A stretch of DNA of 64,000 nucleotides from assembly GCA_002255585.1 (NCBI GenBank), contig NCBJ01000006.1, positions 94 to 64,093 of the forward strand, in the 5' to 3' direction. Shown here piece after piece: positions 16,706 through 47,667 of the stretch (positions are counted from its first letter, which is position 1; every line of letters begins with the position of its first letter). The DNA comes from Parcubacteria group bacterium 21-54-25. GTDB lineage: Bacteria; Patescibacteriota; Minisyncoccia; Phycocordibacterales; Phycocordibacteraceae. The notes beneath the pieces are model-generated. The model was not told the DNA's origin and did not search any database. It was given only the letters and a program-made list of their open reading frames with translations. A program made the translations under genes and the position numbers.

Positions 16706-17008
16706 TTACGGGAAAATATATCACGGGCAAGCATACGTAACCAGGGCCGCGTCTGCACAAATCAGCGTGGCGACGTGCGGAACGCAGGCATAAATAGCGA
16801 AGCAACGATACCAACCCCACCCCCCGCAAGACCTGCGTTCCTGGAATTTAATCCAAAATGAGTTGCGGTAACCCACGCAACACCAAGAGCAACAAACGCT
16901 ACTGCAGATCCTTGCCATACCATCGGCCACGTAATCCGTTTATTATAGTTATCCATTGATTTGTGTTTTGTATTTGCAACAAGTCGTCGCCTTAAAACCG
17001 ATAGCTTG

Positions 17009-17080
17009 TGCCCCCGCCAGGACTCGAACCCAGAACGCCTGGTCCGAAGCCAGGTGTGATATCCATTTCACCACAGGGGC
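17009..17080 (-). tRNA. tRNA-Arg (anticodon UCG), 72 nt
   Basis: GCCCCTG-TG-GTGA-AATGGAT-ATCAC-A-CCTGG-CTTCGGA-CCAGG-CGTT-CTGGG-TTCGAGT-CCTGG-CGGGGGC-A. The anticodon stem is perfect. The T-stem has G-U pairs. Confidence 0.75.
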
Positions 17081-17145
17081 GTGGTACTCATCCATACTAC
17101 TTCCCTGCTAGGAAAAACGCCACACGAGTATTAGTATGGCAATAC

Positions 17146-18609
17146 ATGCGGTACGATGTTCCACGTGAAATACGGGCAGTCACCAATACGCTTCGCAATG
17201 CTGGTTTCGAGGCATACTTAGTCGGTGGCTGCGTGCGCGACTTGCTGCTTGGCAGAAAACCCAAGGACTGGGACGTAACCACCAACGCGAAGCCAGAAAA
17301 CATCCAGAGCATTTTCGAGGAAACCTTCTATACGAACAATTTCGGCACCGTTGGCGTCGTCAACGACACTGAAGACATATCACTCAAGGTTGTAGAAGTA
17401 ACCCCTTACCGCACTGAGTCTGCGTATGAGGACAAGCGTCGCCCAAACTCGGTTACATTTGGAAACGCCATCGAAGAAGATCTTGCGCGACGCGATTTTA
17501 CGATAAACGCCATTGCGTACGACGATTCTAAAGGACAGATAGTAGACCCCTATAAAGGACAAAAAGACATTGAGGCGAAGGTGCTACAGACCGTTGGTGA
17601 CCCCGAGGAGCGCTTTGATGAGGACGGGTTGCGTCTCATGCGCGCTCTTCGTTTGGTAGCAGAACTTGATTTTGCGCTCGATGCTCAAACAGCAGCCGCG
17701 ATACAGAAAAAAGCACATAATCTGAGCTATATTTCAAAGGAGCGCATCCGCGATGAGCTCGTACGCATACTCAACTCTGACCAGCCGATGACGGCACTCG
17801 TGCTTGCGGCTCGCCTTGATATTCTTGAACACATTTCCTCCGATCTCATGCGCGGTATTGGCGTTGAGCAAAACCAGGCGCATTCGTTTGACGTTTTTGA
17901 GCACCTCATGCGAACCATGCAGCATGCGGCAGATAAAAACTGGCATTTCGATATTCGCCTTGCTGGGTTATTCCATGATGTATCCAAGCCAGAAACTAGA
18001 CGTTGGTCAGAAGAAAAAAAGGAATGGACGTTCCATGGCCACGAAGTTGTTGGCGCTCGTGTCGCCAAAAAAGCATTGGAGGATCTCCGTTTTTCACGTG
18101 AAACCATAGAAAAGGTGGTAAAACTAGTGCGTTGGCACATGTTTTTCTCTGATCCGGATCAAATTACACTTTCAGCCGTACGTCGCATGGTTCGTAATGT
18201 CGGTGAAGAAAATATATGGGATCTTCTCAATCTACGGATCTGCGATCGCGTTGGTACTGGGCGGCCAAAGGAACAGCCGTTTCGTTTCCGTAAATACAAA
18301 GCCATGGTGGAGCAAGCACTGCGCGATCCAATATCAGCCGCCATGCTCAAGATTGATGGGACCCACATAATGGAGAAGTTCCACGTGCAACCAGGACCAC
18401 GGATAGGGTGGACACTGCATGCGCTTCTTGAAGAAGTACTTGAGGATCCGAAAAAGAATACCGAAGACTACCTCGATTCACGTGTTTCAGAGCTTCTCGG
18501 TCTCTCTGACGATGATTTACGGAAATTTGGGGAGTCTGGCAAACAGAAGCGTGAGAAGCGCGAGGATGAAGAAATAAAGAACATAATGGATAAACACCAC
18601 GTCTGTTAG
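17146..18609 (+). CDS. cca: CCA-adding tRNA nucleotidyltransferase (PolyA-pol head + HD domain)
   Basis: Motifs GGCVRDLLLG..DWD and RDFTINA are present, with a C-terminal HD domain (LFHDVSKPET). The upstream extension to 17008 overlaps tRNA-Arg and is rejected. Confidence 0.85.
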   Translation: MRYDVPREIRAVTNTLRNAGFEAYLVGGCVRDLLLGRKPKDWDVTTNAKPENIQSIFEETFYTNNFGTVGVVNDTEDISLKVVEVTPYRTESAYEDKRRPNSVTFGNAIEEDLARRDFTINAIAYDDSKGQIVDPYKGQKDIEAKVLQTVGDPEERFDEDGLRLMRALRLVAELDFALDAQTAAAIQKKAHNLSYISKERIRDELVRILNSDQPMTALVLAARLDILEHISSDLMRGIGVEQNQAHSFDVFEHLMRTMQHAADKNWHFDIRLAGLFHDVSKPETRRWSEEKKEWTFHGHEVVGARVAKKALEDLRFSRETIEKVVKLVRWHMFFSDPDQITLSAVRRMVRNVGEENIWDLLNLRICDRVGTGRPKEQPFRFRKYKAMVEQALRDPISAAMLKIDGTHIMEKFHVQPGPRIGWTLHALLEEVLEDPKKNTEDYLDSRVSELLGLSDDDLRKFGESGKQKREKREDEEIKNIMDKHHVC

Positions 18610-33715: not shown

Positions 33716-36058
33716 ATGCGCCGCACCCTTACCATCGGATTTTTTTCACTCGCGCTTCTTGGGGTAGGCACCGGCATCGCTTTGGTTGCCGGGCCTGTGT
33801 CGAGTGTGCATGCGAAAATATTGAAGGGCGCAGGGAACAGCAGCACAGCAAGCTCTCTGTCGTCAGCAACAAACGTAAATCTCGGCACAGGAGCCGTCAA
33901 CACCCAGGGATTTAATGGAACCGGCCCAACTATTTCAAAAGGAAATGCCGCCACTTCGACCGGACAACCCGCGTCGCAACAAACACCCCCCGGTGCAAAT
34001 AATCCAACAACAAAAAGTACCGGCCCAGGAGACGTTCTTGGCCCGATACTTAATTACATTCTAGAAATGTTTGCTTGGTTTGTGGGCGCGACGGGCGTGC
34101 TTATGGGCGGGGCAATTTACTACACCGTCACCAATGCTGGTAACTCCATAAACTCGCTTGGTCCTATCCAGACTGCGTGGGAAGTCTTTCGCGATCTGGG
34201 CAACATCATTTTGGTATTCGGATTTATTGCTATCGGTATCGCAACCATTCTTGACAACGCCTCCTACGGCGCAAAAAAGGCGCTCCCGAAACTGCTTATT
34301 GTTGCGCTCATGCTGAACTTCTCTCTTTTTGCCGCGGAATTTATTGTGGATACCGGCAATATGTTTGCAACACAGTTTTACACCCAAATAAATGGAGGCC
34401 CGCTCCCTACGACAAACGCGAGTTTCCTGAGCCAGGTTAGCAACGAACCGATTTCAAACATACTCATGGATCGGCTGCAGCTCACTACAATCTATAATAT
34501 TAATAATCCGGGTAGCGGTGCGGCGTCTGCGGCAACCAAAAACCCACAGCAACACTGGTTTATCACCTTCATGCTCGGCATTGTGCTGTTTATTGTCACC
34601 GCGTTTGTGCTCGGCACTATCGCGCTCATGCTCATCACGCGTTTCGTCATACTCGTATTCCTTCTTATCGTGTCTCCATTCGGCTTCATTGGCCTGGCCG
34701 GCATTCCGCTCATCAGCACGTACAGCAAAAAGTGGTGGTCGGAACTCACAGACCAGGTGCTTCTTGCGCCCGTGCTCATGTTGCTGCTGTTGGTCGCGCT
34801 CAAACTCGTGCAGTCAGCCACCTTTCTTCAAGGCGCCTCGGCTACGTACGCGAGCGCAACAAGCGGTAACAATCTGCAAGCCATTACCACCCTCCTTGTT
34901 GGATTTACCATCATCATTGGTCTCATGATTGCCGCGCTTATCATTGCGAAGAGCCTCTCGGGGAAAGCCGCCGCGTTCGCCACAAAAACCCAGGGCCGAA
35001 TGATATTTGGCGGCCTCGGCATCGCGGGCCGAACCTCGCTTGGGCTGGGTTTCCACTACGCTTCGGAGAAATTCGGTGGCAGACTCGCGCGCGTTCCTGT
35101 GCTCGGACGCAGTATCGCATCGGGTCTTAAGCGCGGGGCCTCCGCCAGCTACGACGTGCGGGGTAGCAAATTCGTTGGTGCTGGGCTGAAAAATATTGGC
35201 ATTGATGCCGGCAGAGCCGGTGGCAAGGGCGGCTATAAAAAACATTTTGAAGACAGGGTAAAAGGTCGTGAGGAATACGCCGATAGTCTGAAGAAGCTTT
35301 CCTTAGAGGAGCGCCAGAAGCTCGCCGCGGCAAAAGGTGTCGCACAGGCAGCAGAAACAAAACTTAAAGACGTTAGGCCGACTCAGGCAGAAGACGAGGC
35401 GTTTATGCGAAACGAGCACACGAAAGCGCTTGAGGAACACGGTGTGCGCATTGATGCGGCGCGGACAAATGTTACCGGTATGAAAGCTGCGCATGCGAAA
35501 GCGCTTGAAGAGCACGATGCGCGTATTAGTGCAGCACGCACAATTACCGAAAACCTTCGAGCGGTGCGCTCTGATCCAACCCAAGCATTGGTCGGTGAGG
35601 CAGGGAGAATACAAGAGGAAAACGCCCAGAAAGCAGAAGAGGCGCTGGGGCGAGAAGAGGCTCTAAGGAACGAAAAAGAGCGGGTGCAAAAAGAAGATCT
35701 GCGTCAGGCAGAAGCGGGTCTGCAGCAAGAAGAGGACGCGCGACGTGAGAAAGAACGTGAACAGAAAAAAGAAATGGAGGAGCTCCGCAGCGCGCACGCT
35801 GCAGAACGTACGCTGCGGGAAAACGAACTGCAGACCGCAAAGGCGGCCTCAAGCACCATTACTGCCACCGCAAACGCACGCGCCACAAAATACGCAGAAA
35901 ACATCAATTGGGGGCCCGGGCGCTTATTCAAAGCAAATAGACTCGCTCGACAAAACATAGGCGATACTATCAACAAGTCGTCAACTCAGGCGCAGGTTGA
36001 CGCTCTTATGAAAACAATTAAAGATAACCAGAAGAAAGAAGACGCGGAGGAAGCCTAG
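33716..36058 (+). CDS. VirB6/TrbL-like polytopic membrane protein with a long C-terminal charged coiled-coil tail
   Basis: 780 aa. There is a signal or anchor helix followed by at least 6 TM helices in the 110-480 region. The ~250-aa C-terminus is E/K/R/A-rich with tandem repeats KALEEH(G/D)xRI(D/S)AART. Confidence 0.5.
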   Translation: MRRTLTIGFFSLALLGVGTGIALVAGPVSSVHAKILKGAGNSSTASSLSSATNVNLGTGAVNTQGFNGTGPTISKGNAATSTGQPASQQTPPGANNPTTKSTGPGDVLGPILNYILEMFAWFVGATGVLMGGAIYYTVTNAGNSINSLGPIQTAWEVFRDLGNIILVFGFIAIGIATILDNASYGAKKALPKLLIVALMLNFSLFAAEFIVDTGNMFATQFYTQINGGPLPTTNASFLSQVSNEPISNILMDRLQLTTIYNINNPGSGAASAATKNPQQHWFITFMLGIVLFIVTAFVLGTIALMLITRFVILVFLLIVSPFGFIGLAGIPLISTYSKKWWSELTDQVLLAPVLMLLLLVALKLVQSATFLQGASATYASATSGNNLQAITTLLVGFTIIIGLMIAALIIAKSLSGKAAAFATKTQGRMIFGGLGIAGRTSLGLGFHYASEKFGGRLARVPVLGRSIASGLKRGASASYDVRGSKFVGAGLKNIGIDAGRAGGKGGYKKHFEDRVKGREEYADSLKKLSLEERQKLAAAKGVAQAAETKLKDVRPTQAEDEAFMRNEHTKALEEHGVRIDAARTNVTGMKAAHAKALEEHDARISAARTITENLRAVRSDPTQALVGEAGRIQEENAQKAEEALGREEALRNEKERVQKEDLRQAEAGLQQEEDARREKEREQKKEMEELRSAHAAERTLRENELQTAKAASSTITATANARATKYAENINWGPGRLFKANRLARQNIGDTINKSSTQAQVDALMKTIKDNQKKEDAEEA

Positions 36059-36122
36059 TACGTACTACAATAATACAATTACCAAACGCAAACAGATTAC
36101 TCATATTTTTCATCCTTAATCT

Positions 36123-36686
36123 ATGGACACCCCCTCGCAAATACCGCTCGATGATAGTGTTCGCGCAGTAATGGGTGAGCTGCCACAGCCCCTGCAACAA
36201 TTCCTAGCGAGCGGAAAAGTAGAGGCAGTGACCAAGCTGCTGGTAGAAAAATATCGACTTCACCTCGACCAAGGAACCATGCTTGAGCGCGCGCTCATTC
36301 TCATGCTTCTTGGTGTGGAGAGCCCGGAAGAGTTTTCCACGGGTCTAGAAAAAGATCTGGGGCTTTCTGAAGGCACGGTCCGCGCACTTGTTGCTGATGT
36401 AAACGAACAGGTTTTTGTGCCAATTCGAAAACAACTGGAGAAAGAGGGCGCAGGCACACCAGACGCGCCGCAGCCAGGGACACTGCCAGGACAGGAGCAG
36501 AAAACCCCAATGGGAGTTGCTGAGGCGGCAATAATGGGCACCGCAAGCGCGGTAGCGGATCCACCTCCAACAGCGCACACGCCACCACGTGCAGAGCCGC
36601 CACCCCCCATTCCGCTCCGTCCAAAAAATGCGCCGCCCCTGGTCAAGGAGTACGCGGTCGACCCGTACCGAGAATCCGTTGAGTAG
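36123..36686 (+). CDS. Hypothetical protein with a Pro-rich C-terminus
   Basis: 187 aa. No TM helix and no recognisable domain. It is part of the operon. Confidence 0.45.
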   Translation: MDTPSQIPLDDSVRAVMGELPQPLQQFLASGKVEAVTKLLVEKYRLHLDQGTMLERALILMLLGVESPEEFSTGLEKDLGLSEGTVRALVADVNEQVFVPIRKQLEKEGAGTPDAPQPGTLPGQEQKTPMGVAEAAIMGTASAVADPPPTAHTPPRAEPPPPIPLRPKNAPPLVKEYAVDPYRESVE

Positions 36687-36758
36687 GACGTGGCGATGCG
36701 TTCGTAACGGTGGAGAACCTGCGTTTTTTATTCAGTATTCCGGTATACTATCTAGTAC

Positions 36759-37178
36759 ATGGAGTACCCGGTACCGCAGTTCATTGAGATAGAGAGCAAG
36801 ATCATAGGGCCGCTCACGCTCAAGCAGTTCATTTATATTGCTGGTGGTGGTGGGCTTTGTATTATTCTTTTTCATTTCTTGCCTTTTTTTCTTGCGGTCT
36901 TGGCGTGTCTTCCGGTCGCGGGCTTTGCGGGCGCGTTGGCGTTTTATAAAATAAATAACAAGCCGTTCATTGCTACTGTGGAGGCCGCGTTTAGGTTCTA
37001 CACTTCTTCACGCTTGTTCTTGTGGCATAAAGAGCACACGAAGGAAAGTGCAGTGCAAGCCGCGCCCGCGGCGGCGCCGGCGGCGCACGCAGCCAGCCGC
37101 CTTACGCGCGGCAAGCTGCATGAACTTGCGTGGTCGCTTGATATACAGAATCACCCCCGAGAGCGCTCCTCCTTATAG
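36759..37178 (+). CDS. PrgI-family (VirB3-like) small membrane protein
   Basis: The N-terminus (MEYPVPQFIEIESKIIGPLTLKQFIYIAGGGGLCIIL, then a second helix) matches the PrgI-family pattern. It lies immediately upstream of the VirB4 ATPase, as in Gram-positive T4SS. Confidence 0.55.
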   Translation: MEYPVPQFIEIESKIIGPLTLKQFIYIAGGGGLCIILFHFLPFFLAVLACLPVAGFAGALAFYKINNKPFIATVEAAFRFYTSSRLFLWHKEHTKESAVQAAPAAAPAAHAASRLTRGKLHELAWSLDIQNHPRERSSL

Positions 37179-37181
37179 AGT

Positions 37182-37829
37182 ATGACTAAACCACGCGCTA
37201 CCGCGGCACAAACATTCGTTCCAGTGAAAGAAATACGTAACGGTGTCATCATACTCAAAGACGGCGGGTATCGCGGCGTACTTATTTGTTCTTCGGTAAA
37301 CTTTGGTTTGAAGTCCGCGGGCGAACAGGCGGCTATCATAAGCGGCTTCCAAACTTTTTTAAACACGCTTGATTTTCCAGTGGAGATTGTTGTGCAGTCG
37401 CGTAAAATGGATATCCGTCCGTATCTCAGTCTTCTCGCGGAAAAAGAAAAGGACCAGCAGACGGAGCTGTTGCGTATTCAATTGCGCGAATACATGGCGT
37501 TTGTTCGTTCGTTTACGGAAAATTCAAATATCATGACTAAATCGTTTTATGTTTTGGTACCCTACGCTCCGGAGGGTGCTGCGGCTGCAAAAAAAGCTCT
37601 GGGTGGACTTATCCACATGGGCGGGAGCACCGCTGGAAACGCCCGCGCGCAGACAAAATCATTTGAGGAGTCCCATGCGCAACTCGAGCAGCGTATGGCG
37701 CTCGTTGCTTCCAGCCTTTCAGCCACCGGCGTGCGCGCCGTACCGCTTGGCACAGAAGAAATCATCGAGCTGCTCTACCGATCGTTTAATCCTGGTGAAC
37801 TTGAAAACCCTATTCGCCTTGAGCAATAA
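37182..37829 (+). CDS. VirB4/PrgJ-family ATPase, N-terminal domain fragment (ends at an in-frame TAA)
   Basis: 215 aa. The VirB4 N-domain pattern is present (VPVKEIRNGVIILKDGGYRGVLICSSVNFGLKSAGEQAAIISGFQTFLN). It is in the same reading frame as the next ORF. Only one TAA (37827-37829) plus two codons separate them. Confidence 0.6.
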   Translation: MTKPRATAAQTFVPVKEIRNGVIILKDGGYRGVLICSSVNFGLKSAGEQAAIISGFQTFLNTLDFPVEIVVQSRKMDIRPYLSLLAEKEKDQQTELLRIQLREYMAFVRSFTENSNIMTKSFYVLVPYAPEGAAAAKKALGGLIHMGGSTAGNARAQTKSFEESHAQLEQRMALVASSLSATGVRAVPLGTEEIIELLYRSFNPGELENPIRLEQ

Positions 37830-37835
37830 ATCATT

Positions 37836-39662
37836 ATGTCACTTATTGATTTTCTCAACAAAAAACATCAACAGGAGTCTGCCGTCACCTCGGTGCTTCC
37901 GAAAGATATCTATGCCGAGGGGAAACTTGATCTGGTCGACACTATTGCGCCCGCGGCGCTTAAGGTTAGCGCGCGCGAAATTGAACTGGGTGAGAAGTTT
38001 GCGCGCACCTTTTATACCATCTCGTACCCCGCCTTTCTTTCTGACGGCTGGTTTGCACCGATTGTAAATCTCGATAAGGTGCTCGATGCATCAATATTCA
38101 TACACCCCCTTGAAACCGAGGAGGCGCTCCGTAACTTCCAAAAGAAGGTGGCTGATGTGCAAAGCCAGATAAACGAACGCGAACACAAGGGCTTGGTACG
38201 CGACCCGAAGCTTGACACCGCCTACCAAAACCTTGAGGCGCTGCGCGACCGGCTTCAGCAGGCGCGCGAGAAACTGTTTGATGTTGGGCTCTACCTCACG
38301 CTCTACGGCGATTCGAAAGAGGAAATTGACAAAACCGAGGGGGATATTCGCGGCATCCTCGACGCGCAGCTCGTCTACACAAAGCCTGCGCTTTTTCAAC
38401 AAGAACAGGGGTTCCGCACAACGCTCCCGCTTGGCAACGACGAGCTCATGGTCGAGTCGAAAATGAACTCTGAACCGCTCTCGTCCATCTTCCCGTTTGT
38501 TTCGTTTGATCTCACGAGTGATCGCGGCATTCTCTATGGTATTAATCGGCACAACGCTTCCTTAATTCTCTTCGATCGCTTCTCTCTTGAAAACTATAAC
38601 TCGGTCGTATTTGCGAAATCCGGTTCGGGTAAGTCATACGCGCTGAAGCTCGAGATCCTTCGCTCGCTCATGTTTGGCACTGACGTAATCGTCATTGACC
38701 CTGAGCGCGAGTACGAGCAGCTTGCCGAGGCCACTGACGGGCGCTCTTTTAACATCTCTCTATCCTCTGAACATCATATAAATCCCTTCGACCTGCCGGT
38801 CATCCAGGAGGGAGAAGATCCGAAGGACCTGCTGCGCAACAACATTATTACGCTCGTGGGACTGTTTCGCATCATGCTGGGCGGTCTTACGCCTGGAGAG
38901 GACGCGCTTATCGATCGCGCAATTACGGAAACCTACGCCCTCAAAGACATTACTGGCGATACTGATTTCACCAATATTGAGCCACCACTGTTGGCGGACT
39001 TCGAAACGGTACTCGTGGGTATGGAGGGGACTGATTCGCTCGTGGAGCGGCTCACCAAGTACACCACTGGTTCGTGGAGTGGTTTCATCAATCAACCAAC
39101 CAATATCGATATCAATCGCCAATTTATTGTGTTTTCGGTGCGTGATATGGAGGACGAGCTGAAGCCGGTCGCCATGTATATCGTTTCGCACTACATTTGG
39201 AACGCAATTCGTCGCAACCTTAAAAAACGCCTTTTAGTTATCGATGAGGCGTGGTGGATGATGAAAGCAGAGGACACCGCCTCTTTCCTCTACTCGCTTG
39301 CCAAACGTGGGCGCAAATATTACCTCGGTGTTGCGACGATTACCCAGGACGTTGAGGACTTCTTGCGCTCGCCCTATGGGCGGCCAATTCTGACAAACTC
39401 ATCCATTCAGCTTCTTTTGAAACAATCGCCGACAACCGTCGATGTGCTCCAAAAAACCTTTAATCTTACCGATGAGGAAAAATACCTGCTGCTTGAGTCC
39501 GGGGTGGGTGAGGGGCTCTTCTTCGCCGGATTGAAACACGTGGCTATTAAAATTGTTGCTTCGTACACCGAAGATCAGATCATCACATCGGATCCGTCAC
39601 AACTTCTTGCAATCAAGCGCGAAAAAGAACGACTTGAAGAAACTGATGCTGGCGGCACGTAG
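37836..39662 (+). CDS. VirB4/TraC/PrgJ-family conjugation-type ATPase (C-terminal ATPase portion)
   Basis: 608 aa. Walker A is VVFAKSGSGKSYAL and Walker B is VIVIDPEREY. The C-terminal TraC/VirB4 motifs are VATITQDVEDF. Confidence 0.8.
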   Translation: MSLIDFLNKKHQQESAVTSVLPKDIYAEGKLDLVDTIAPAALKVSAREIELGEKFARTFYTISYPAFLSDGWFAPIVNLDKVLDASIFIHPLETEEALRNFQKKVADVQSQINEREHKGLVRDPKLDTAYQNLEALRDRLQQAREKLFDVGLYLTLYGDSKEEIDKTEGDIRGILDAQLVYTKPALFQQEQGFRTTLPLGNDELMVESKMNSEPLSSIFPFVSFDLTSDRGILYGINRHNASLILFDRFSLENYNSVVFAKSGSGKSYALKLEILRSLMFGTDVIVIDPEREYEQLAEATDGRSFNISLSSEHHINPFDLPVIQEGEDPKDLLRNNIITLVGLFRIMLGGLTPGEDALIDRAITETYALKDITGDTDFTNIEPPLLADFETVLVGMEGTDSLVERLTKYTTGSWSGFINQPTNIDINRQFIVFSVRDMEDELKPVAMYIVSHYIWNAIRRNLKKRLLVIDEAWWMMKAEDTASFLYSLAKRGRKYYLGVATITQDVEDFLRSPYGRPILTNSSIQLLLKQSPTTVDVLQKTFNLTDEEKYLLLESGVGEGLFFAGLKHVAIKIVASYTEDQIITSDPSQLLAIKREKERLEETDAGGT

Positions 39663-39665
39663 GGT

Positions 39666-40292
39666 ATGGAGCAGCCGCCAAAACAGAAAATGCCCATGTG
39701 GCGCGCCGTCGTCATTGTAGCGCTTGCTTTTTTTGTAGACCTATTGAAATTCTTTTTCTCAATACTTGCCGTCACCGGCCCCCTGCTTGTGGGCGCAGCG
39801 GCGGGCGCAGCTGTGGGTAGTCACCTTGGTTCTACGGCGGGCCACGTTACCGGGCTGGCCGTTATGGGGTCGTCGTACCTATTTGAGTTTGCGAGTGGCG
39901 GCATTGGCGCAGCAGGCATTACGTTCATCGGCGAAATGTTTGCTTTGGCTATTGCTTTTTTTGGAGAGGTGCTCATCACAATGATGCTTGCGCTCTCTGG
40001 AGTACAGATTTTCAGCAAGAAAGCTCCCTCAAAAAGACTTGCTACTGTTTTTGTAACGGCGCTGCTTAATTTTGTACCATTTATTAACAGTGGTCCGTGG
40101 CTTACTGCCGGAACCTGGTTGATTGTGCGCGGTGTTAGAAAAGAAGATCGCGACGCACAGCGTGAATATGAAGATAAGACGAACCAGGAACGCACACGGG
40201 TGCAGTCAAGGCGTGAAGCGGCATCTGCGTTCTTTGCGAATCGACAGGCTGCAAATGAGGAAATCCCCGAATCACCACCACTGGCCGCCTAG
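39666..40292 (+). CDS. Hypothetical polytopic membrane protein
   Basis: 208 aa. It has 4-5 hydrophobic helices rich in Gly/Ala and a charged C-tail. Confidence 0.45.
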   Translation: MEQPPKQKMPMWRAVVIVALAFFVDLLKFFFSILAVTGPLLVGAAAGAAVGSHLGSTAGHVTGLAVMGSSYLFEFASGGIGAAGITFIGEMFALAIAFFGEVLITMMLALSGVQIFSKKAPSKRLATVFVTALLNFVPFINSGPWLTAGTWLIVRGVRKEDRDAQREYEDKTNQERTRVQSRREAASAFFANRQAANEEIPESPPLAA

Positions 40293-40322
40293 CTCGACTC
40301 GTAACGCGGTATACTATTTTAT

Positions 40323-41324
40323 ATGCGGACATTGATTGCGGCTAGTGCGAGCATGAGCATGATTATGTTAGTGCTGCCACTTGCGGTACGCGCGCAAACC
40401 ATCTCCACCGACCCGTTCTCAATCAACATCACACCCGCGTACCCAAGCCCGTATGAGCCACTGACACTGTCTGTTGGAAGCGGCTCTGTTGATATGTCAA
40501 ACAGCACTTTTAAGGTGTTTGTAAACGGGGCACTGGCGACAGTTGGGACGGGCGCGTCTTCTGTTTCTCTCACTGCGAGCGGCCCAGGCACAACAATGAA
40601 TATTCGGGTTGTCGTGTCGTCAGGCGGCCAGCAGTATCAAAAAACACTTGCGGTGCGTCCGCTTGCGGTGGCGCTTTCAGTAGAGCCCCTTGCGACCCTC
40701 CCTCCGCTTTATCCCGGCGGCGCTACCATTCCCCCAAACGGGAGCGTCCGCATGGTCGCCGTTCCTACTTTTTATTCGAATAGTGGTGTCTACATTGACC
40801 CCGCGACTCTTTCGTATACCTGGAGCGTGGGCGGGCAAACGCTTATAGCAAGCTCCGGCATTGGCCAATCCTCGGTGGTTGTTTCGGCACCGCTTCCGTA
40901 CCGTCAAGAAGACGTTTCGGTGCTTGTACAAAACCAAGACGGCTCGCTGGTTGCCTCCCAGAGCGTCGCGCTCACCCCACAGAACCCGCTCGTGCAGTTG
41001 TACCAAAAAGATCCGCTTATGGGGATTGAATATGGGCACGCGCTATCCGGGCAACAAACCCTTTCGGGAGTACAAACTTCATTTGTGGCGGTGCCGTACG
41101 GTTTTTCGACCGATAGTGGCGGGCCGAGCATTGTGTGGTCGCTAAACGGCGCGACGGCGCAGACTGGAGACACTATCACGCTTCAGCCGCAGGGCGCCGG
41201 GCAGGGAAGTGCGGCTCTGTCGGCTGCGGTGAGTGATCCGGCGTCGTACGAGAGCGCGACGGCGGGATTCACTGCGGTATTTGGATCTGCTCAGACCGGC
41301 GGTTTTGGGCTATTCGGTTTGTAG
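40323..41324 (+). CDS. Hypothetical secreted protein
   Basis: 333 aa. It has a signal peptide (MLVLPLAVRAQT). The composition is Ser/Thr/Val-rich and looks beta-rich. Confidence 0.45.
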   Translation: MRTLIAASASMSMIMLVLPLAVRAQTISTDPFSINITPAYPSPYEPLTLSVGSGSVDMSNSTFKVFVNGALATVGTGASSVSLTASGPGTTMNIRVVVSSGGQQYQKTLAVRPLAVALSVEPLATLPPLYPGGATIPPNGSVRMVAVPTFYSNSGVYIDPATLSYTWSVGGQTLIASSGIGQSSVVVSAPLPYRQEDVSVLVQNQDGSLVASQSVALTPQNPLVQLYQKDPLMGIEYGHALSGQQTLSGVQTSFVAVPYGFSTDSGGPSIVWSLNGATAQTGDTITLQPQGAGQGSAALSAAVSDPASYESATAGFTAVFGSAQTGGFGLFGL

Positions 41325-41334
41325 TATTGCTTAT

Positions 41335-42387
41335 ATGTATACCCTACTGTCTTATCGTCAGAAATTATTGCGAATTTTGGCACTCACGGGCTTTGTTGGG
41401 ATGTTATTCCTTTTTCTCCCGCCCATTGCTGCGGCTGCGGGCACTACCGCGGTAACGCCGGCCGTTGCGTCGACTGGTTCTGCTGGTTTTGTTTCTTTGA
41501 CCGGCCTTCCTCTCTTTTCACAAGGAGCGGCTGCGGGCGGCATGAGTACTTTTTTGAATTTACTCTATCAGTACTTAATTGGTATTGCGGTTATCCTCGC
41601 GGTGCTTGAAATTATGTGGGGTGGATTTCTCATCATGGGAAGTGGTGCGAGTGTTTCGAGTAAGGAGGCGGGGAAAAATAAGGTTGGCATGGCGCTCGGC
41701 GGCCTCCTTCTTGTTCTTTCTCCGTATATTGTCTTCAGCCTCATAAACCCCGGCGCGCTTTCGCTCCAAATCGGCGCTGGAAACCTGCAGCTGAGTCCGA
41801 CACCACCACCCAAACAATCTTCGTCCGGACCGCAACAACAAGTCAGTTTAGGTACTGGATGCTCTATTGTTGGCGCAAGTGATGTTTTGCAGACTGCAAA
41901 CTGTCCTTCTTCTAAAAGTACGCAGCAATTCCAAAACTTGTGTGGCAGCGAGGGGGGTCAATATTCGAACATCTCTTTAAACAAGTATGCTGACGGAACA
42001 GCGGCTTATGGTGTCTGGATGTGCTCGTGGCCACATAAATATGTATTTATAGACACAAGCCCGAACTCCCTTTTGTCTCTTCAGAACTACACCTCGGCAT
42101 TTAATACCATTAACTGGATGCAGCCACTGGCGGTCACGTCAAAAGACTCAAACAATGCTAGTTCCGCGATACAATTTGCACACATCTGCTCAAGTGCTGG
42201 CTTCTCGACCTGTATAAGCCAACAGTTTCTCTCTGTTCCTTGTGCACCTATACCGAAAACATCGCTGCCTGCGGGCAGAAGTATGAAATGTTATTCAGAA
42301 TCTTTAACATGTAGGGACTATGGCTATGCACACTCTATTGTCGCGAGCTTGTGCTCAAAGGACCCAAGCTGGGCACCGTTTCAGTAG
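41335..42387 (+). CDS. VirB2/TrbC-like pilin-type protein with a Cys-rich C-terminal extension
   Basis: A signal-like helix is followed by two hydrophobic segments separated by a short charged loop (LIGIAVILAVLEIMWGGFLIMGSG...KNKVGMALGGLLLVLSPYIVFSLI), as in T4SS pilins. A ~200-aa domain with 12 Cys follows. The start is at ATG 41335; the ORF track's 41233 overlaps the previous gene. Confidence 0.45.
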   Translation: MYTLLSYRQKLLRILALTGFVGMLFLFLPPIAAAAGTTAVTPAVASTGSAGFVSLTGLPLFSQGAAAGGMSTFLNLLYQYLIGIAVILAVLEIMWGGFLIMGSGASVSSKEAGKNKVGMALGGLLLVLSPYIVFSLINPGALSLQIGAGNLQLSPTPPPKQSSSGPQQQVSLGTGCSIVGASDVLQTANCPSSKSTQQFQNLCGSEGGQYSNISLNKYADGTAAYGVWMCSWPHKYVFIDTSPNSLLSLQNYTSAFNTINWMQPLAVTSKDSNNASSAIQFAHICSSAGFSTCISQQFLSVPCAPIPKTSLPAGRSMKCYSESLTCRDYGYAHSIVASLCSKDPSWAPFQ

Positions 42388-42392
42388 ATGAT

Positions 42393-43613
42393 ATGAGAAG
42401 AATCTTTATTGTTGCTGGTAGCATCCTCGCTCTCGTAATTGTGGGCGTTGGCGGGTATATTTTATTTTTTGCGCATCGGGCTAGTGTGGCGGTAGCTCCG
42501 CCCGAGCAGGTGGCCTTCCCAACAGGAACCAGCACGGGCCCCGTAGGGGCTGTTGTGGGCACAAGCACCGCTCCTGTGGTCGTCCAGCCGGCTTCCACCG
42601 CTTCGAGCACGCAGCCGCATTTGGTGCAAATTGCGGCAGGCCCTGTGGTGCCGGGGGTGGTCGTGTTTGACGCCACCACAACCTCAACAAGTACGGTTTC
42701 TGCTGTGGTTCGATATATCGATCGACAGAGTGGTAACGTGTACAGCTACGCTGTTGCAAACGGGGAGTTGTCGCGCCTCTCGAACAAAACGATCCCTGGT
42801 ATCGAGCGCGCGACGTGGCTTGCCGATGGCTCGCTTGCGTACGTGCAATATTTGTCCGCCATCAGCGGCACCACAAACACCCAGACCTACGCGCTTCCCG
42901 CAAACGGTATTGGTGGTTTCTTTCTTGCACAAGACCTCTCTGGAATAGCGGTGCAGGGCTCAAAATCCATCCTCACGCTTGCTTCCGGCGCAAATGGATC
43001 GGCAGCTACGTATGCGAAATCGGATGACAGCAGCCCCTATACTGCCTTCCAAACACCGCTCTCTTCTGTTGTCGCCTCGTTTGCTGGGCCGTCCCACTAT
43101 TTGATATACACCAAACCATCCGTGGCGCTTGGTGGCTACGCATTTCTCGTCAACAAAAAAACTGGCGCGTTTTCCCAAATAGCTGGCCCTCTCGACGGAC
43201 TTGTGGCGCGCGCAAGCCCGGACGGCACACAAATTCTCGTGAGTTATGTTGATGCACAGGGAGCGATGCGTTTGGAGTTGGTTGCTGTGGCAACCCACAC
43301 AGCGACAGAGCTGCCGCTGGCAACAATTGCGAGCAAGTGTGTGTGGGCCAGCGACAGCGCGTCTATTTATTGCGGTATCCCCACTAACCCCCCAGCCGCT
43401 TCCTATCCGGATGATTGGTACCAGGGCGCAGTGGCTTTTGATGATCAGATATGGAAAATTGATGTGGCCGGCCGTTATGCGCAATTGGTGCTTGATTTTT
43501 CGAAAGAGACGGGCGGGCAGCTTGACGCAACCGCACTGTCGGTTGATCCCAAAAACACTGTTTTGTCGTTTGTAAATAAAAATGATGGGTCGTTGTGGGA
43601 GTACAGATTTTAG
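42393..43613 (+). CDS. Hypothetical membrane-anchored extracytoplasmic protein (last gene of the operon)
   Basis: ~407 aa from MRRIFIVAGSILALVIVGVGGYILFF. The composition looks beta-rich, possibly a propeller-like fold. Confidence 0.45.
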   Translation: MRRIFIVAGSILALVIVGVGGYILFFAHRASVAVAPPEQVAFPTGTSTGPVGAVVGTSTAPVVVQPASTASSTQPHLVQIAAGPVVPGVVVFDATTTSTSTVSAVVRYIDRQSGNVYSYAVANGELSRLSNKTIPGIERATWLADGSLAYVQYLSAISGTTNTQTYALPANGIGGFFLAQDLSGIAVQGSKSILTLASGANGSAATYAKSDDSSPYTAFQTPLSSVVASFAGPSHYLIYTKPSVALGGYAFLVNKKTGAFSQIAGPLDGLVARASPDGTQILVSYVDAQGAMRLELVAVATHTATELPLATIASKCVWASDSASIYCGIPTNPPAASYPDDWYQGAVAFDDQIWKIDVAGRYAQLVLDFSKETGGQLDATALSVDPKNTVLSFVNKNDGSLWEYRF

Positions 43614-43635
43614 GGGGGTGTGGAACTTCTTGTTT

Positions 43636-44403: not shown

Positions 44404-44735
44404 GGTTTCGTTGATGTATTGTACCTCATTAGATCGTTAAAAAGAGTGTTGGTTTCCTCAAAAAGGTCTTTGTATGTGAGTGTTTCTGCCCCCTTTCTTG
44501 CAAAAAGAACGAGGCTTTTTGTGGGTAGTGTGCTTGCTCGACATACTGCAAACAATTGGCGCTTAAGACGGTGTCTTTGTACTGATGTTTTTGCTATTTT
44601 TTTACTCACCACGACCGCGCACCCGGACACACTGTTTGCGTACACAAGAGACAAGTGTTTTGAGTTGGATCGATTCCCAATGGAAAGTAGGTAGGTCAGG
44701 TCGCGCCGACGAAGCCGGCGGAAATGATCGGGCAT
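44400..44735 (-). CDS. rnpA: Ribonuclease P protein component
   Basis: The RnpA pattern VSKKIAKTSVQRHRLKRQL is present. It is positioned between rpmH and yidC. Confidence 0.75.
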   Translation of the reverse strand: MPDHFRRLRRRDLTYLLSIGNRSNSKHLSLVYANSVSGCAVVVSKKIAKTSVQRHRLKRQLFAVCRASTLPTKSLVLFARKGAETLTYKDLFEETNTLFNDLMRYNTSTKP

Positions 44736-44745
44736 ATGTAATTAT

Positions 44746-44883
44746 TTATACCGCAAGTTGTTTGCGGCCTTTTTGTGCTCGGCGACGCAGTATTTTCCGG
44801 CCGCCGGGTGTTTTTGATCGCGAGAGGAAGCCGTGTGTTTTTGCGCGCTTGCGTTTTTTTGGTTGATAGGTGCGTTTTGGCAT
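44746..44883 (-). CDS. rpmH: 50S ribosomal protein L34
   Basis: Manual minus-strand translation gives [45 protein letters not shown], the canonical L34. It is too short for the ORF track. Confidence 0.85.
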
Positions 44884-44990
44884 GTCCACAGGATACTAAC
44901 AGGTTGTGGTGGAAACCGCAAGATGTGTTGTGTTTTCTATACCATTTGCTTTGGTGGTGGGGAGTGTATAATGCCTTACACACAGGCCCA

Positions 44991-46364
44991 ATGAACACTC
45001 CAACTCATACTGTAAATACTGCTGACGCTCACGAGCTTTGGGAGTATGTACTGAGTCAGATAGAGCTCTCAATATCACCAGCAAACTTTAACACGTGGTT
45101 TAAATCGAGCTCTATTGTAAAAATAGAGGAGGGGGTGGTGTATGTGGGCCTACCGAGCCAATTTTTCCGTGAGTGGTATTTGAAAAAATTCCATCCAACC
45201 ATTTTAAAAGTGGTTCGTTCGGTCTCGTATGAGTTTCGTAACGTTGAATACCTTATTGTAAAAGATGAGCGCAGAAGGCTTGTACGGGAACAAAAACACG
45301 ACAAACCAACCATCGAACTCCCGTTGAATGAGTTTTATGTCAATAAGAGTGATAATTTAAACCCGCGATATACATTCGACTCGTTTGTTGTTGGTTCTTT
45401 CAATGAGCTTGCTTATACTGCCGCTCAGGCGGCGATAAATCGCCCCGGAATAACCTACAACCCACTTTTTATTTATGGGGACACAGGGAGAGGAAAAACA
45501 CACCTTATTCAAGCAATAGGCAACCAATTTAAAAAACTTTACCCAAACAGAAAAGTTTACTATCTAACCTCTGAAAAGTTTGCTGTTGATTATACCGACT
45601 CTCTTCAGTCGGGGTCTGCAAACCGTTTTAAAGATAAATATCGTCAATACGATCTTCTTATTATGGATGATATTCAGTTCCTCTCCAGGAAAGAGAAGTC
45701 GCAGGAGGAGCTTTTTCATCTTTTCAACGCATTGTATGACAATAATAAACAAATTGTCTTTTCTTCAGACCACGCTCCGGTTGCTATCCCAGATATTGCC
45801 AACCGGCTCAGAAGTCGTTTCTCTGTTGGTATGATGATTGATATTGGAGAGCCGGACATGGAGTCGCGTGTTGCTATTATTAATAAAAAAATGGCATTAA
45901 ATAGTGTGGTGCTTGCGCCAGAAGTTGTTGAATATATTGCAACAACCGTTCCTGGTAGTATTCGTGAACTTGAGGGGGTGGTGAATAATATTGTATGCCA
46001 TACTCAAACTAAAGGAGTGCCACCAGACATTGCTGAGGTGCGCCAAACTCTCCGCTCATTCTCAAAATCTACAAAAAATGTTTCAGTTAAGTATATTGTG
46101 TCGAAGGTTGCTGATTTTTACGGTATTGATCAGGAAAGTGTATATGAGAAAACGAGACGACGGGAAGTTGTTCGACCGCGGCAAATAATTATGTATATTT
46201 TACGTGAGGATTTTAGTGTCTCTTATCCGACTATTGGTATGAAGTTGGGTGGGAGAGACCATACAACAGTGATTCATTCTTGTGAGAAAATTAAAAGAAA
46301 TCTTATTGAGGATCCTGAGCTTGCAAAAGAGATTGAGGATATTAGGACACTGTTAACTAATTGA
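44991..46364 (+). CDS. dnaA: Chromosomal replication initiator protein DnaA
   Basis: It has the DnaA N-domain, AAA+ Walker A (GDTGRGKTHL) and Walker B (LLIMDDIQFL), and a C-terminal DNA-binding domain. The start is taken at MNTPTH (ATG 44991). The upstream extension to 44775 runs into the rpmH promoter region. Confidence 0.9.
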   Translation: MNTPTHTVNTADAHELWEYVLSQIELSISPANFNTWFKSSSIVKIEEGVVYVGLPSQFFREWYLKKFHPTILKVVRSVSYEFRNVEYLIVKDERRRLVREQKHDKPTIELPLNEFYVNKSDNLNPRYTFDSFVVGSFNELAYTAAQAAINRPGITYNPLFIYGDTGRGKTHLIQAIGNQFKKLYPNRKVYYLTSEKFAVDYTDSLQSGSANRFKDKYRQYDLLIMDDIQFLSRKEKSQEELFHLFNALYDNNKQIVFSSDHAPVAIPDIANRLRSRFSVGMMIDIGEPDMESRVAIINKKMALNSVVLAPEVVEYIATTVPGSIRELEGVVNNIVCHTQTKGVPPDIAEVRQTLRSFSKSTKNVSVKYIVSKVADFYGIDQESVYEKTRRREVVRPRQIIMYILREDFSVSYPTIGMKLGGRDHTTVIHSCEKIKRNLIEDPELAKEIEDIRTLLTN

Positions 46365-46463
46365 GTATTTTTGTGGAAAAAACTATGTATATCTTCTGGA
46401 TAAAAAACAAAATTTCCACTTCATTAAATGTTGTGGTGAGTTTAGTTGGTGATGTTGTTAATA

Positions 46464-46543
46464 TTATCCACCTACTGTCTTTTTATCCATCTGTTTTTTA
46501 TGCTTCTGTGGTGGGGGTTTTTAAAGAATCCACATTATCCACA
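46464..46543. promoter_or_regulatory. oriC DnaA-box cluster in the dnaA-dnaN spacer
   Basis: The boxes are TTATCCACC (46464-46472), TTATCCATC (46483-46491), GAATCCACA (46526-46534) and a perfect TTATCCACA (46535-46543). The region is AT-rich (46365-46560). Confidence 0.65.
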
Positions 46544-46560
46544 CAGTTAATAGAAGTACT

Positions 46561-47658
46561 ATGATTATAGTTTTAGAAAAAATAAAATTTATTGAGGCGG
46601 TGCGTAGTGTTGCTCGTTTCACTCAGCACCACATCACATCACTCCCTGTGCTCTCCTGTATACTTATTGTTGCTGGAGACGATGGGGTACGATTTAGAGC
46701 AACTAATTTAGAAACAGGAATTGATTTTAAGATCGATGGTATTTGTAAGGCTACGGGGGTAGTCGCCATACCAGCAACCATTCTTCAGCAAATAGCCGCC
46801 TCTCTAACTAATGAAGGATCATTAACTATTGAACAAACAGGAGACACTGCAATAATCTCATTTAACAATGCACGAAGTGTTATAAAAACAATAGCATATG
46901 AAGATTTTCCAATAATCCCCCTCCCTACAACAAATAAAAAAAATACCATAAACGGCGCGGTGTTTAAATCACTCATTGAAACTGTCGCTGTGTGTGCATC
47001 AACATCAACTGTTCGTCCAGATCTTTCAAGTATCGCAATATTTTTCGAAGGAGGAGTACTGACATTTGTTGCAACAGATTCATTTCGTCTTGCTGAAAAA
47101 AAGAAAACACTTCAAACAACGTTACCAAATCTCAACATCCTCATTCCTGCTAAAAATAGCACCAACATCATTCAAACCATCCCAGACAACGACATAATTT
47201 TTATGTTCGATGAACATCAGGTCGCCTTCTTGTGGAATGAAAGCATAGTAACAACACGCCTTACTAATGGAACCTATCCAGACTACCGACAAATTATTCC
47301 AAAAAAAACAACCACAGAGGCAACATTTTTAAAAAAAGATTTTGAAGCAGCGCTCCGCCGCACAGCAATTTTCTCTGACACCTTTCAAAAACTACAACTA
47401 GGTTTTGATCCAAAAAAACAACACCTTACCCTTACAACACATAATCAAGACACCGGCAGCGCAAAAGAATCTATAACTGCAAAAATAACTGGCGCAGCTA
47501 TAGAGCAATCCTTTAATCACCACTATCTTCAAACACCTCTTTCTCTTATAAACACGGAGAGTATAACTGTTTCCGCGGGCAGCGTGGGACAACCACTCAC
47601 TATTCGCGGCGTTGGCGACAACTCATTTCTTTATCTCGTTATGCCGATGAACCAATAA
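46561..47658 (+). CDS. dnaN: DNA polymerase III beta sliding clamp
   Basis: 365 aa with the three-domain clamp pattern. It directly follows dnaA. Confidence 0.9.
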   Translation: MIIVLEKIKFIEAVRSVARFTQHHITSLPVLSCILIVAGDDGVRFRATNLETGIDFKIDGICKATGVVAIPATILQQIAASLTNEGSLTIEQTGDTAIISFNNARSVIKTIAYEDFPIIPLPTTNKKNTINGAVFKSLIETVAVCASTSTVRPDLSSIAIFFEGGVLTFVATDSFRLAEKKKTLQTTLPNLNILIPAKNSTNIIQTIPDNDIIFMFDEHQVAFLWNESIVTTRLTNGTYPDYRQIIPKKTTTEATFLKKDFEAALRRTAIFSDTFQKLQLGFDPKKQHLTLTTHNQDTGSAKESITAKITGAAIEQSFNHHYLQTPLSLINTESITVSAGSVGQPLTIRGVGDNSFLYLVMPMNQ

Positions 47659-47667
47659 TAAACAAAA

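What the first reader, a model, noticed from the sequence alone, without database searches (positions are those of the whole stretch)
37182..39662. VirB4-family ATPase split by a single in-frame TAA codon
ORFs 37182..37829 (VirB4 N-domain) and 37836..39662 (Walker A/B ATPase domain) are in the same frame. Only TAA (37827-37829), ATC and ATT separate them (...LEQ*IIMSLIDF...). Together they give ~823 aa, the normal VirB4/PrgJ length. This could be a recent nonsense mutation (pseudogenisation of the operon's motor), a genuine two-polypeptide VirB4, or translational readthrough. No SD-like sequence precedes the downstream ATG.
Basis: seen in the sequence. Interest (0 to 1): 0.55.

Follow-up and report, generated by a model that had tools for sequence, protein, structure and literature searches.

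The report
Conserved two-gene VirB4 (TrsD plus ATPase)
The "split" secretion-motor gene is two separate genes, a small TrsD-like protein and a VirB4 ATPase, that hundreds of related ultra-small bacteria also keep apart; their sharing a reading frame here is chance, and the arrangement is already published.

Summary
ORF 37182..37829 (215 aa) and ORF 37836..39662 (608 aa) share a frame and are separated only by TAA-ATC-ATT. It is not a lesion, an assembly error or a readthrough site.

- **Stand-alone in relatives:** the 215-aa protein is a conserved separate gene in 505 species-level genomes. All 120 best database hits are 208-232 aa.
- **Frame is random:** in 79 related loci the ATPase always starts at its own ATG, aligned to residue 1. 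Among 71 short junctions the frame relation is 26 / 25 / 20 (chi-square p = 0.65).
- **No readthrough signature:** all three stop codons are used. Nine of 26 in-frame spacers hold a second in-frame stop. Eight loci have 113-978 nt between the genes, and seven of these inserts carry whole genes.
- **Identity:** the small protein matches the N-terminus of single-chain VirB4 models and weakly matches TrsD/TraD. The large one matches the rest of VirB4 above the curated cut-off.
- **Precedent:** staphylococcal pGO1-type plasmids have the same VirB3-like, trsD, ATPase order.
- **Literature:** Quinonero-Coronel et al. 2025 (PMC12102498) report TrsD next to virB4 throughout Patescibacteria.

Verdict: already known, low interest.

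The parts
36759..37178 (+). PrgI / VirB3-like small membrane protein (139 aa, 2 TM-like segments), first gene of the conserved triad
   Evidence: Pfam PrgI PF12666 at E 2.5e-10, 41 bits against a 27-bit cut-off. Two hydrophobic segments, and a same-strand match in 78 of 80 related loci. Its stop lies 3 nt before the next ATG.
37182..37829 (+). TrsD-like protein (215 aa): stand-alone homologue of the N-terminal 'TraC-like' domain of VirB4
   Evidence: All 120 best homologues are 208-232 aa and carry precomputed PF26593, which names 'TraC-like'. It aligns to positions 2-133 of 752 of NF045971 and 104-233 of 894 of NF045975. 27 of 27 family members hit these models and 25 of 27 hit TrsD/TraD NF041427. 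The top 14 PDB fold hits are TrwK/VirB4.
37827..37835 (+). Junction: TAA stop of the trsD-like gene plus a 6-nt spacer (ATCATT) before the virB4 ATG
   Evidence: Read directly from the sequence. In relatives the spacers are 1 nt (17 loci), 2 nt (17), 3 nt (7), 4 nt (6) and 6 nt (8), and range up to 978 nt, in all three frames and with all three stop codons.
37836..39662 (+). VirB4 ATPase (608 aa) lacking the first ~180-215 residues of single-chain VirB4. Walker A AKSGSGKS is at 38613-38636 and Walker B LLVIDE at 39231-39248.
   Evidence: NF045971 CD1110-family VirB4 at 381 bits (cut-off 325), model positions 182-733 of 752. Pfam P-loop_TraG at 5e-25. PDB 4AG5 VirB4 C-terminal domain at 5e-43, and TrwK. 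Motif coordinates. Median 83% identity in 78 related loci.
39666..40292 (+). Downstream membrane protein (208 aa, 4 TM-like segments), starting 3 nt after the virB4 stop; probably part of the same operon
   Evidence: Gap and start. TM-like segments and hits in 22 related loci.
33716..36058 (+). 780-aa polytopic membrane protein (8 TM-like segments), a candidate VirB6-like channel subunit (inferred only)
   Evidence: Hydropathy scan. No Pfam or NCBIfam hit. Matched in only 8 of 80 loci within 4-kb flanks.
40323..42387 (+). Two further ORFs (40323..41324, 333 aa; 41233..42387, 384 aa) conserved downstream of virB4 in relatives; function not established
   Evidence: Same-strand tblastn matches in 60 and 43 of 80 loci.
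44775..47658 (+). dnaA and dnaN in a low-GC (38-43%) stretch, placing the T4SS operon next to the replication origin
   Evidence: Pfam Bac_DnaA at 3.6e-63 and the DNA_pol3_beta domains. GC profile. The same context is seen for the fused relative L082 and is described in PMC12102498.

Best explanation
These are two functional genes of the type IV secretion system (T4SS) of a Parcubacteria/Paceibacteria bacterium. One is a trsD-like gene encoding a detached copy of the N-terminal 'TraC-like' domain of VirB4. The other is a virB4 gene encoding the rest of the N-terminal region plus the Walker A/B ATPase domain. The gene order PrgI/VirB3-like, TrsD-like, VirB4 is ancestral to a very large clade. 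Each gene has its own conserved stop and start. The shared reading frame in this genome is one of three equally frequent, unselected outcomes of a very short intergenic spacer. Inferred: the cistrons are translated from one mRNA by termination-reinitiation coupling, since the spacers are 3, 6 and 3 nt and the genome does not use Shine-Dalgarno sites. Inferred: the two polypeptides assemble non-covalently into a VirB4-like motor, with TrsD playing the part that the extreme N-terminus plays in single-chain VirB4, namely docking to VirB3/PrgI at the membrane.
For: Shown:
1. The window protein is 100% identical to a hypothetical protein of Parcubacteria group bacterium 21-54-25, and all 120 best homologues (65-80% identity) are stand-alone proteins of 208-232 aa.
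2. 505 species-representative genomes encode a relative.
3. In 79 loci the ATPase begins at its own ATG, aligned to residue 1 (M[AS]L[LI]DF). Frame relation among 71 short spacers is 26 / 25 / 20 (chi-square p = 0.65). Stop codons are TAA 44, TGA 22, TAG 13. Nine of 26 in-frame spacers hold a second in-frame stop.
4. Eight loci have 113-978 nt between the genes. Seven of these inserts, and an eighth (L041) where the contig ends before virB4, carry complete ORFs with Pfam hits to 23S_rRNA_IVP, SET and DUF5680.
5. The two proteins tile single-chain VirB4 models co-linearly without overlap: positions 2-133 and 182-733 of 752 in one model, 104-233 and 292-893 of 894 in another. This is consistent across 27 of 27 family members.
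6. The top 14 fold matches of the predicted N-piece structure are all TrwK/VirB4.
7. In 1.84 billion cluster representatives, 3,274 clusters match. 149 of the 150 best are 117-443 aa, none of fused length. One is a fused 797-aa protein.
8. The same architecture occurs on a pGO1-type S. aureus plasmid: trsD of 227 aa, then a 670-aa ATPase that aligns from residue 3 of the window ATPase.
9. The triad PrgI, TrsD, VirB4 is present in 78 of 80 loci.
10. PMC12102498 reports 2,272 TrsD homologues in Patescibacteria, 1,664 of them next to virB4, and says TrsD is listed as essential in Ca. Southlakia epibionticum.
Against: The match to the curated TrsD/TraD model is far below its cut-off (16 bits against 200). 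A profile comparison with one S. aureus TrsD is weak (E 0.016, probability 2.8%). The link to staphylococcal TrsD therefore rests on remote homology plus synteny. The structure model is of moderate quality (pLDDT 70, TM about 0.43). Physical assembly of the two polypeptides and translational coupling are inferred and were not tested. No expression data exist for this organism.
Confidence: 0.93

Rival explanations
1. Recent nonsense mutation: a single-chain ~823-aa VirB4 was inactivated by a point mutation creating TAA, so the T4SS motor is a pseudogene.
For: The ORFs share a frame and only one stop separates them. A fused 797-aa relative exists.
Against: The stop and the downstream ATG start are conserved in 79 of 79 related loci at 64-88% protein identity. 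All 120 closest homologues are ~210 aa. The C-terminal motif of the small protein (SFNPGELENPIRL) is invariant right up to the stop. Both genes are highly conserved, with median identities of 68% and 83%.
Confidence: 0.01
2. Programmed stop-codon readthrough (or recoding of TAA) yields a full-length VirB4 in addition to, or instead of, the two pieces.
For: The window junction is in frame with a 6-nt, stop-free spacer. 17 of 26 in-frame junctions in relatives also have no second stop.
Against: 45 of 71 short junctions are out of frame. Nine in-frame spacers contain another in-frame stop. All three stop codons occur with no conserved context. Seven loci have whole genes inserted between the two. 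No suppressor tRNA was found in the window. TAA terminates other genes in the window.
Confidence: 0.02
3. Sequencing or assembly error in a metagenome-assembled genome created a false stop codon.
For: The source is a MAG, and single-base errors do occur in such assemblies.
Against: Independent assemblies from 79 other genomes and many studies show the same stop-plus-ATG architecture at the same position. The identical protein was seen on 3 contigs.
Confidence: 0.01
4. The 215-aa protein is an unrelated accessory protein that only happens to sit upstream of a naturally short VirB4, so there is no 'split' at all.
For: No hit in the available Pfam copy. No significant PDB sequence hit. The TrsD match is weak.
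Against: Its alignments to the extreme N-termini of two VirB4 family models are co-linear and do not overlap those of the ATPase, in 27 of 27 members with best E 1e-11. The precomputed PF26593 'TraC-like' domain is found both in the stand-alone proteins and at the N-terminus of the fused 797-aa protein. Fold hits are exclusively VirB4.
Confidence: 0.03

Closest known systems
TrsD + VirB4 pair of the Patescibacteria (CPR) T4SS (Quinonero-Coronel et al. 2025, Microb Genom, PMC12102498)
   Same: Same lineage, Parcubacteria/Paceibacteria. Same gene set (PrgI/VirB3, TrsD, VirB4), with TrsD next to virB4 and the locus close to the replication origin. This window is one instance of what that paper surveys.
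   Different: Nothing substantive. In the passages returned by term searches of the paper, junction frames and spacers are not discussed. The frame statistics and inserted cassettes reported here are small additions.
TrsD/TraD + TrsE (VirB4-like) of staphylococcal pGO1/pSK41-type conjugative plasmids (MPF_FATA, pGO1 subclass)
   Same: Gene order is VirB3-like, then trsD (227 aa), then the ATPase (670 aa). The ATPase aligns from residue 3 of the window ATPase, so the break is at the same place. 25 of 27 family members hit NF041427.
   Different: Very remote in sequence: 16 bits against a 200-bit cut-off, and hhalign probability 2.8%. The spacer is 20 nt rather than 6. That system is a plasmid conjugation system, whereas this is a chromosomal, origin-proximal system thought to serve an epibiotic lifestyle (per PMC12102498 and PMC12857230).
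Single-chain VirB4 ATPases (CD1110 family NF045971; Mbov_0397 family NF045975; TrwK of R388, PDB 7O41/7O43)
   Same: The two window proteins together cover these models end to end. They have the Walker A/B ATPase domain and a TraC-like N-terminal domain, and the summed length is 823 aa.
   Different: Here the first ~180-215 residues are a separate polypeptide. A single-chain version within the same clade is rare: 1 of the 150 best cluster representatives, P0226 at 797 aa.
SCO6880 family (NF042935, actinobacterial)
   Same: Weak matches suggest this one 477-aa protein covers PrgI (model positions 11-81), the TrsD-like protein (236-290) and the start of the ATPase protein (364-476). That would be another way of cutting the VirB3-VirB4 module.
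   Different: All matches are far below the 60-bit cut-off (16-21 bits), so this is a hint only. The break point would differ.

Membership tests
VirB4-like conjugal transfer ATPase, CD1110 family (NF045971) | Whole-protein score above the curated cut-off (325 bits) | tested here: met
   The 608-aa protein scores 381.2 bits, E 9.4e-114, over model positions 182-733 of 752.
VirB4-like conjugal transfer ATPase, CD1110 family (NF045971) | Walker A and Walker B nucleotide-binding motifs | tested here: met
   AKSGSGKS at residues 260-267 and LLVIDE at residues 466-471. Aligned to the 4AG5 VirB4 ATPase domain at E 5e-43.
VirB4-like conjugal transfer ATPase, CD1110 family (NF045971) | Single polypeptide of ~750-820 aa that includes the N-terminal TraC-like domain | tested here: not met
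   Model positions 2-133 are matched by the separate 215-aa protein. The separation is conserved in 79 of 79 loci.
TrsD/TraD family conjugative transfer protein (NF041427; CONJscan MPF_FATA TrsD) | Score above the curated NCBIfam cut-off (200 bits) | tested here: not met
   16.4 bits, E 0.006 for the window protein. 25 of 27 relatives hit at E<0.01, best 1e-5. This makes it a remote homologue, not a member by this threshold. PMC12102498 assigns such proteins to TrsD with the CONJscan profile, which was not available here.
TrsD/TraD family conjugative transfer protein (NF041427; CONJscan MPF_FATA TrsD) | A soluble protein of ~200-230 aa encoded between the VirB3-like gene and the VirB4-like ATPase gene | tested here: met
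   Window: PrgI 36759..37178, the 215-aa protein with no TM segment, then VirB4. S. aureus pJ01-01: hypothetical protein, trsD of 227 aa, then the ATPase.
TrsD/TraD family conjugative transfer protein (NF041427; CONJscan MPF_FATA TrsD) | Remote homology to the N-terminal part of VirB4 | tested here: met
   27 of 27 members match the N-termini of NF045975 and NF045971. Foldseek top 14 hits are TrwK/VirB4. PF26593 TraC-like is shared with the fused P0226.
Programmed stop-codon readthrough | Downstream ORF kept in frame with the upstream ORF across relatives | tested here: not met
   Frame counts are 26 / 25 / 20 among 71 short junctions, p = 0.65 for uniformity.
Programmed stop-codon readthrough | Conserved stop codon identity and context, and no further in-frame stop | tested here: not met
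   TAA 44, TGA 22, TAG 13 with variable spacers. Nine of 26 in-frame spacers hold a second in-frame stop.
Pseudogene by nonsense mutation | Interruption confined to this genome, with orthologues intact | tested here: not met
   All 120 best homologues are 208-232 aa. 79 of 79 loci have the stop and the separate ATG.
Patescibacterial T4SS locus (PMC12102498) | VirB4 together with TrsD and PrgI/VirB3 in a Patescibacteria genome, often near the origin of replication | tested here: met
   Organism identified. Triad shown. dnaA/dnaN lie 5 kb downstream.

The most novel reading that the evidence does not exclude
In the third of lineages where the junction happens to be in frame with no second stop, as in this genome, rare spontaneous readthrough of the stop could yield a little covalently fused TrsD-VirB4. 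Such junctions are one point mutation away from a single-chain VirB4. This may be how the rare fused form (P0226, 797 aa) arose. The clade would then be a natural experiment in reversible fission and fusion of a secretion motor. A further untested possibility is that keeping the N-terminal domain separate lets the cell set its stoichiometry or assembly order independently of the ATPase.
Probability: 0.05. Interest if true: 0.35.

Novelty: already known. Interest (0 to 1): 0.1.

Why it matters
It matters mainly as a caution for annotation. Two adjacent same-frame ORFs that together reach the 'normal' length of a protein look like a broken gene, but here they are the normal, conserved state of the Patescibacteria T4SS, a machine reported to be essential for the epibiotic growth of these bacteria (PMC12102498, PMC12857230). 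Automated pipelines should not flag this pair as a pseudogene or merge it. The biological role of TrsD is still unassigned. The invariant C-terminal motif of TrsD and the conserved N-terminal motif of the ATPase found here are reasonable places to begin interaction studies, but this window adds nothing unexpected.

Tried and rejected
- **Pfam on the 215-aa protein:** no hit. The library copy apparently lacks PF26593, which the precomputed tables assign to all homologues and which names 'TraC-like'.
- **PDB sequence search with the family profile:** only a chance hit, fructosamine kinase at E 0.14. The fold search was needed instead.
- **hhalign of the family profile against one S. aureus TrsD:** too weak to count as evidence (probability 2.8%, E 0.016). 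The alignment has low diversity (Neff 1.7) and the template is a single sequence.
- **Promoter/terminator scan of 35900-44800:** no more sites than in shuffles, and none placed meaningfully at the junction. There is no sign of an internal promoter or terminator between the two genes.
- **Suppressor tRNA:** none among the six tRNAs in the window.
- **Structure of a concatenated or complex model:** not attempted.
- **Pseudogene, readthrough and assembly-error readings:** considered and rejected on the comparative evidence.
Full report
**1. The observation**

The sequence at 37818-37850 reads CTT GAG CAA TAA ATC ATT ATG TCA CTT ATT GAT TTT. ORF 37182..37829 (215 aa) and ORF 37836..39662 (608 aa) are both present and share a frame. 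The continuous translation has one internal stop. The description is accurate, and 215 + 608 = 823 aa.

**2. Identity of the two products**

The 608-aa protein is a VirB4-type ATPase.
- Pfam P-loop_TraG at 5e-25 and AAA_10.
- NCBIfam CD1110-family VirB4 at 381 bits against a 325-bit cut-off.
- PDB 4AG5, the VirB4 C-terminal domain, at 5e-43 over residues 230-585, plus TrwK of R388.
- Walker A AKSGSGKS at residues 260-267 and Walker B LLVIDE at residues 466-471.

The 215-aa protein has no hit in the Pfam copy available here. It does align to the extreme N-terminus of two single-chain VirB4 models: positions 2-133 of 752 in NF045971 and 104-233 of 894 in NF045975. The 608-aa protein covers positions 182-733 and 292-893 of the same two models. 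The two ORFs therefore tile a single-chain VirB4 co-linearly and without overlap. This holds for 27 of 27 members of the family alignment, and 25 of 27 also hit the TrsD/TraD model.

An AlphaFold model of the small protein (pLDDT 70) finds TrwK/VirB4 chains as its top 14 PDB fold matches (probability 0.75-1.0, TM about 0.43). The precomputed domain for every homologue is PF26593. One search names it 'TraC-like', and it sits at the N-terminus of a fused relative.

The break lies inside the VirB4 N-terminal region, not at the boundary with the ATPase domain. The large protein keeps about 230-250 residues ahead of the crystallised ATPase domain.

**3. Is the split a lesion?**

No. The window protein is 100% identical to a hypothetical protein of Parcubacteria group bacterium 21-54-25. 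All 120 best of 2,219 homologues (65-80% identity) are stand-alone proteins of 208-232 aa from Paceibacteria, Kaiserbacteria and other Patescibacteria. A scan of one genome per species found 505 genomes encoding a relative.

I analysed the junction in the 80 loci retrieved, 79 of which carry both genes.
- The ATPase gene always begins at its own ATG, aligned to residue 1 of the window ATPase (consensus M[AS]L[LI]DF).
- The small gene always ends at a stop just after the invariant motif SFNPGELENPIRL.
- Spacer lengths are 1 nt (17 loci), 2 nt (17), 3 nt (7), 4 nt (6), 6 nt (8), 24-39 nt (8) and 113-978 nt (8).
- Among the 71 short junctions the ATPase ATG is in the same frame in 26, in +1 in 25 and in +2 in 20. 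This is indistinguishable from uniform (chi-square 0.87, p = 0.65).
- Stop codons are TAA 44, TGA 22 and TAG 13.
- Nine of the 26 in-frame spacers contain a second in-frame stop.
- In seven of the long-spacer loci the insert carries complete genes. L041 carries a similar insert, but its contig ends before virB4. The inserted genes are a 23S_rRNA_IVP four-helix-bundle protein plus a SET-domain, DUF5680 or unassigned protein.

None of this is compatible with a recent nonsense mutation, an assembly error or programmed readthrough. The shared frame in the window is a one-in-three coincidence.

**4. How far does the two-gene state extend?**

A profile search of 1.84 billion cluster representatives found 3,274 matching clusters. 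Of the 150 best, 149 are 117-443 aa, so none has fused length. The longer ones carry low-complexity tails. One is a 797-aa fused protein, P0226.

That fused gene is real. It sits on a MAG contig downstream of PrgI and near dnaA, and carries TraC-like plus P-loop_TraG domains in one chain. Fused forms therefore exist in the clade but are rare.

Outside the clade, a pGO1-type S. aureus plasmid has the same order: a VirB3-like gene, trsD (227 aa), then a 670-aa VirB4-like ATPase. That ATPase aligns from residue 3 of the window ATPase, so the break is at the same position. The direct sequence link to staphylococcal TrsD is weak (16 bits against a 200-bit cut-off; hhalign probability 2.8%). I treat it as remote homology supported by synteny.

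**5. Context and likely mechanism**

The conserved core is PrgI/VirB3-like (36759..37178), TrsD-like (37182..37829) and VirB4 (37836..39662). It is present on the same strand in 78 of 80 loci. The successive gaps are 3, 6 and 3 nt.

Only 3 of 43 long ORFs in the window have an SD-like motif, below the 16% random background. The genome simply does not rely on SD sites. No promoter-like or terminator-like signal stands out at the junction.

I infer that the cistrons are translated from one transcript by termination-reinitiation coupling. I also infer that TrsD and the ATPase assemble non-covalently, with TrsD supplying the N-terminal module that contacts VirB3 at the membrane in single-chain VirB4. 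The latter draws on established knowledge of the R388 inner-membrane complex, PDB 7O41/8RTB. These two steps are inferred, not shown.

The operon lies about 5 kb upstream of dnaA-dnaN, in a low-GC origin region.

**6. Comparison with the literature**

Quinonero-Coronel et al. 2025 (PMC12102498) surveyed Patescibacteria T4SS loci and make the following points.
- It was the most abundant component recovered: 2,272 homologues, 1,664 of them associated with virB4.
- It occurs otherwise only in the pGO1 subclass of MPF_FATA.
- It has no assigned function.
- It is listed as essential in Ca. Southlakia epibionticum.
[quoted passage not shown] A 2025 review (PMC12857230) likewise treats the Patescibacteria T4SS as a monoderm-type system.

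**7. Verdict**

The feature is already known and ordinary for this lineage. The only small additions here are the junction statistics, the rare fused relative and the cassettes inserted between the two genes in some genomes. Interest is low.

Noticed in passing
L018:1896-2877, L024:4613-5421, L025:4604-5486, L041:4634-5545, L048:610-1165, L050:4631-5353, L052:4637-5534, L062:3475-4363: In 8 of 80 related loci, 550-980 nt are inserted exactly between the trsD-like gene and virB4, always after a TAG stop. The insert carries a conserved ~120-aa 23S_rRNA_IVP / bAvd-like four-helix-bundle protein (Pfam 2.4e-35). It is preceded by a variable ORF: SET domain (5e-15), DUF5680 (8e-30) or unassigned. 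In L048 the two ORFs appear fused or deleted. This looks like a small cassette that targets this intergenic site.
   Followed up: partly
L038, L042, L046, L047, L049, L066, L073, L077 (junction spacers of 24-39 nt): A subgroup of relatives has a longer AT-rich spacer between the two genes, always after a TGA stop, with a shared motif (tttaaatatttaaatat). All eight are in frame, and seven of the eight contain a second in-frame stop. This may be a -10-like or other regulatory element acquired once in that subclade.
   Followed up: no
L082:544-2937 (P0226, GCA_964615945.1 contig CAZTUR010000004.1): A rare naturally fused TrsD-VirB4 of 797 aa in a related MAG, with PrgI upstream and dnaA nearby. 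The linker lacks the M[AS]L[LI]DF start motif of the separate ATPases. It is the only fused-length protein among the 150 best cluster representatives.
   Followed up: partly
window 44000-48000 (dnaA 44775..46364, dnaN 46561..47658): GC drops to 38-43% around dnaA-dnaN, against about 52% elsewhere. This is the probable replication origin, and the T4SS operon ends about 1-5 kb upstream of it, as reported for Patescibacteria.
   Followed up: partly
window, whole; e.g. upstream of 36759, 40323, 30999: Only 3 of 43 long ORFs have an SD-like motif within 20 nt of the start, below random expectation. Several genes have TATACT about 8-12 nt before the start codon. This suggests leaderless or very short-leader mRNAs in this genome.
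   Followed up: partly
L066 (DAHXMN010000149.1): A 2-kb contig labelled 'Candidatus Woesearchaeota archaeon' carries the same trsD-virB4 junction, base for base, as the bacterial loci L047 and L049. This is probably a binning contaminant rather than an archaeal T4SS.
   Followed up: no
P0203 (432 aa), P0220 (443 aa) and other 280-440-aa representatives: Some TrsD-like proteins carry long Pro/Ala/Gln/Thr-rich low-complexity C-terminal extensions after the conserved ~205-aa core. Their function is unknown.
   Followed up: no
window 36759-39662 versus NCBIfam NF042935: The actinobacterial SCO6880 family model (477 aa) is weakly matched, in order, by PrgI (model positions 11-81), the TrsD-like protein (236-290) and the start of the ATPase protein (364-476). 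This hints that some Actinobacteria fuse VirB3 with the VirB4 N-region and cut the module elsewhere. All scores are well below the cut-off.
   Followed up: no
window 17008-17080: A tRNA-Arg(TCG) gene on the minus strand coincides with the first 73 nt of the mechanical + strand ORF 17008..18609 (GTG start). The true start of that gene is probably further downstream.
   Followed up: no
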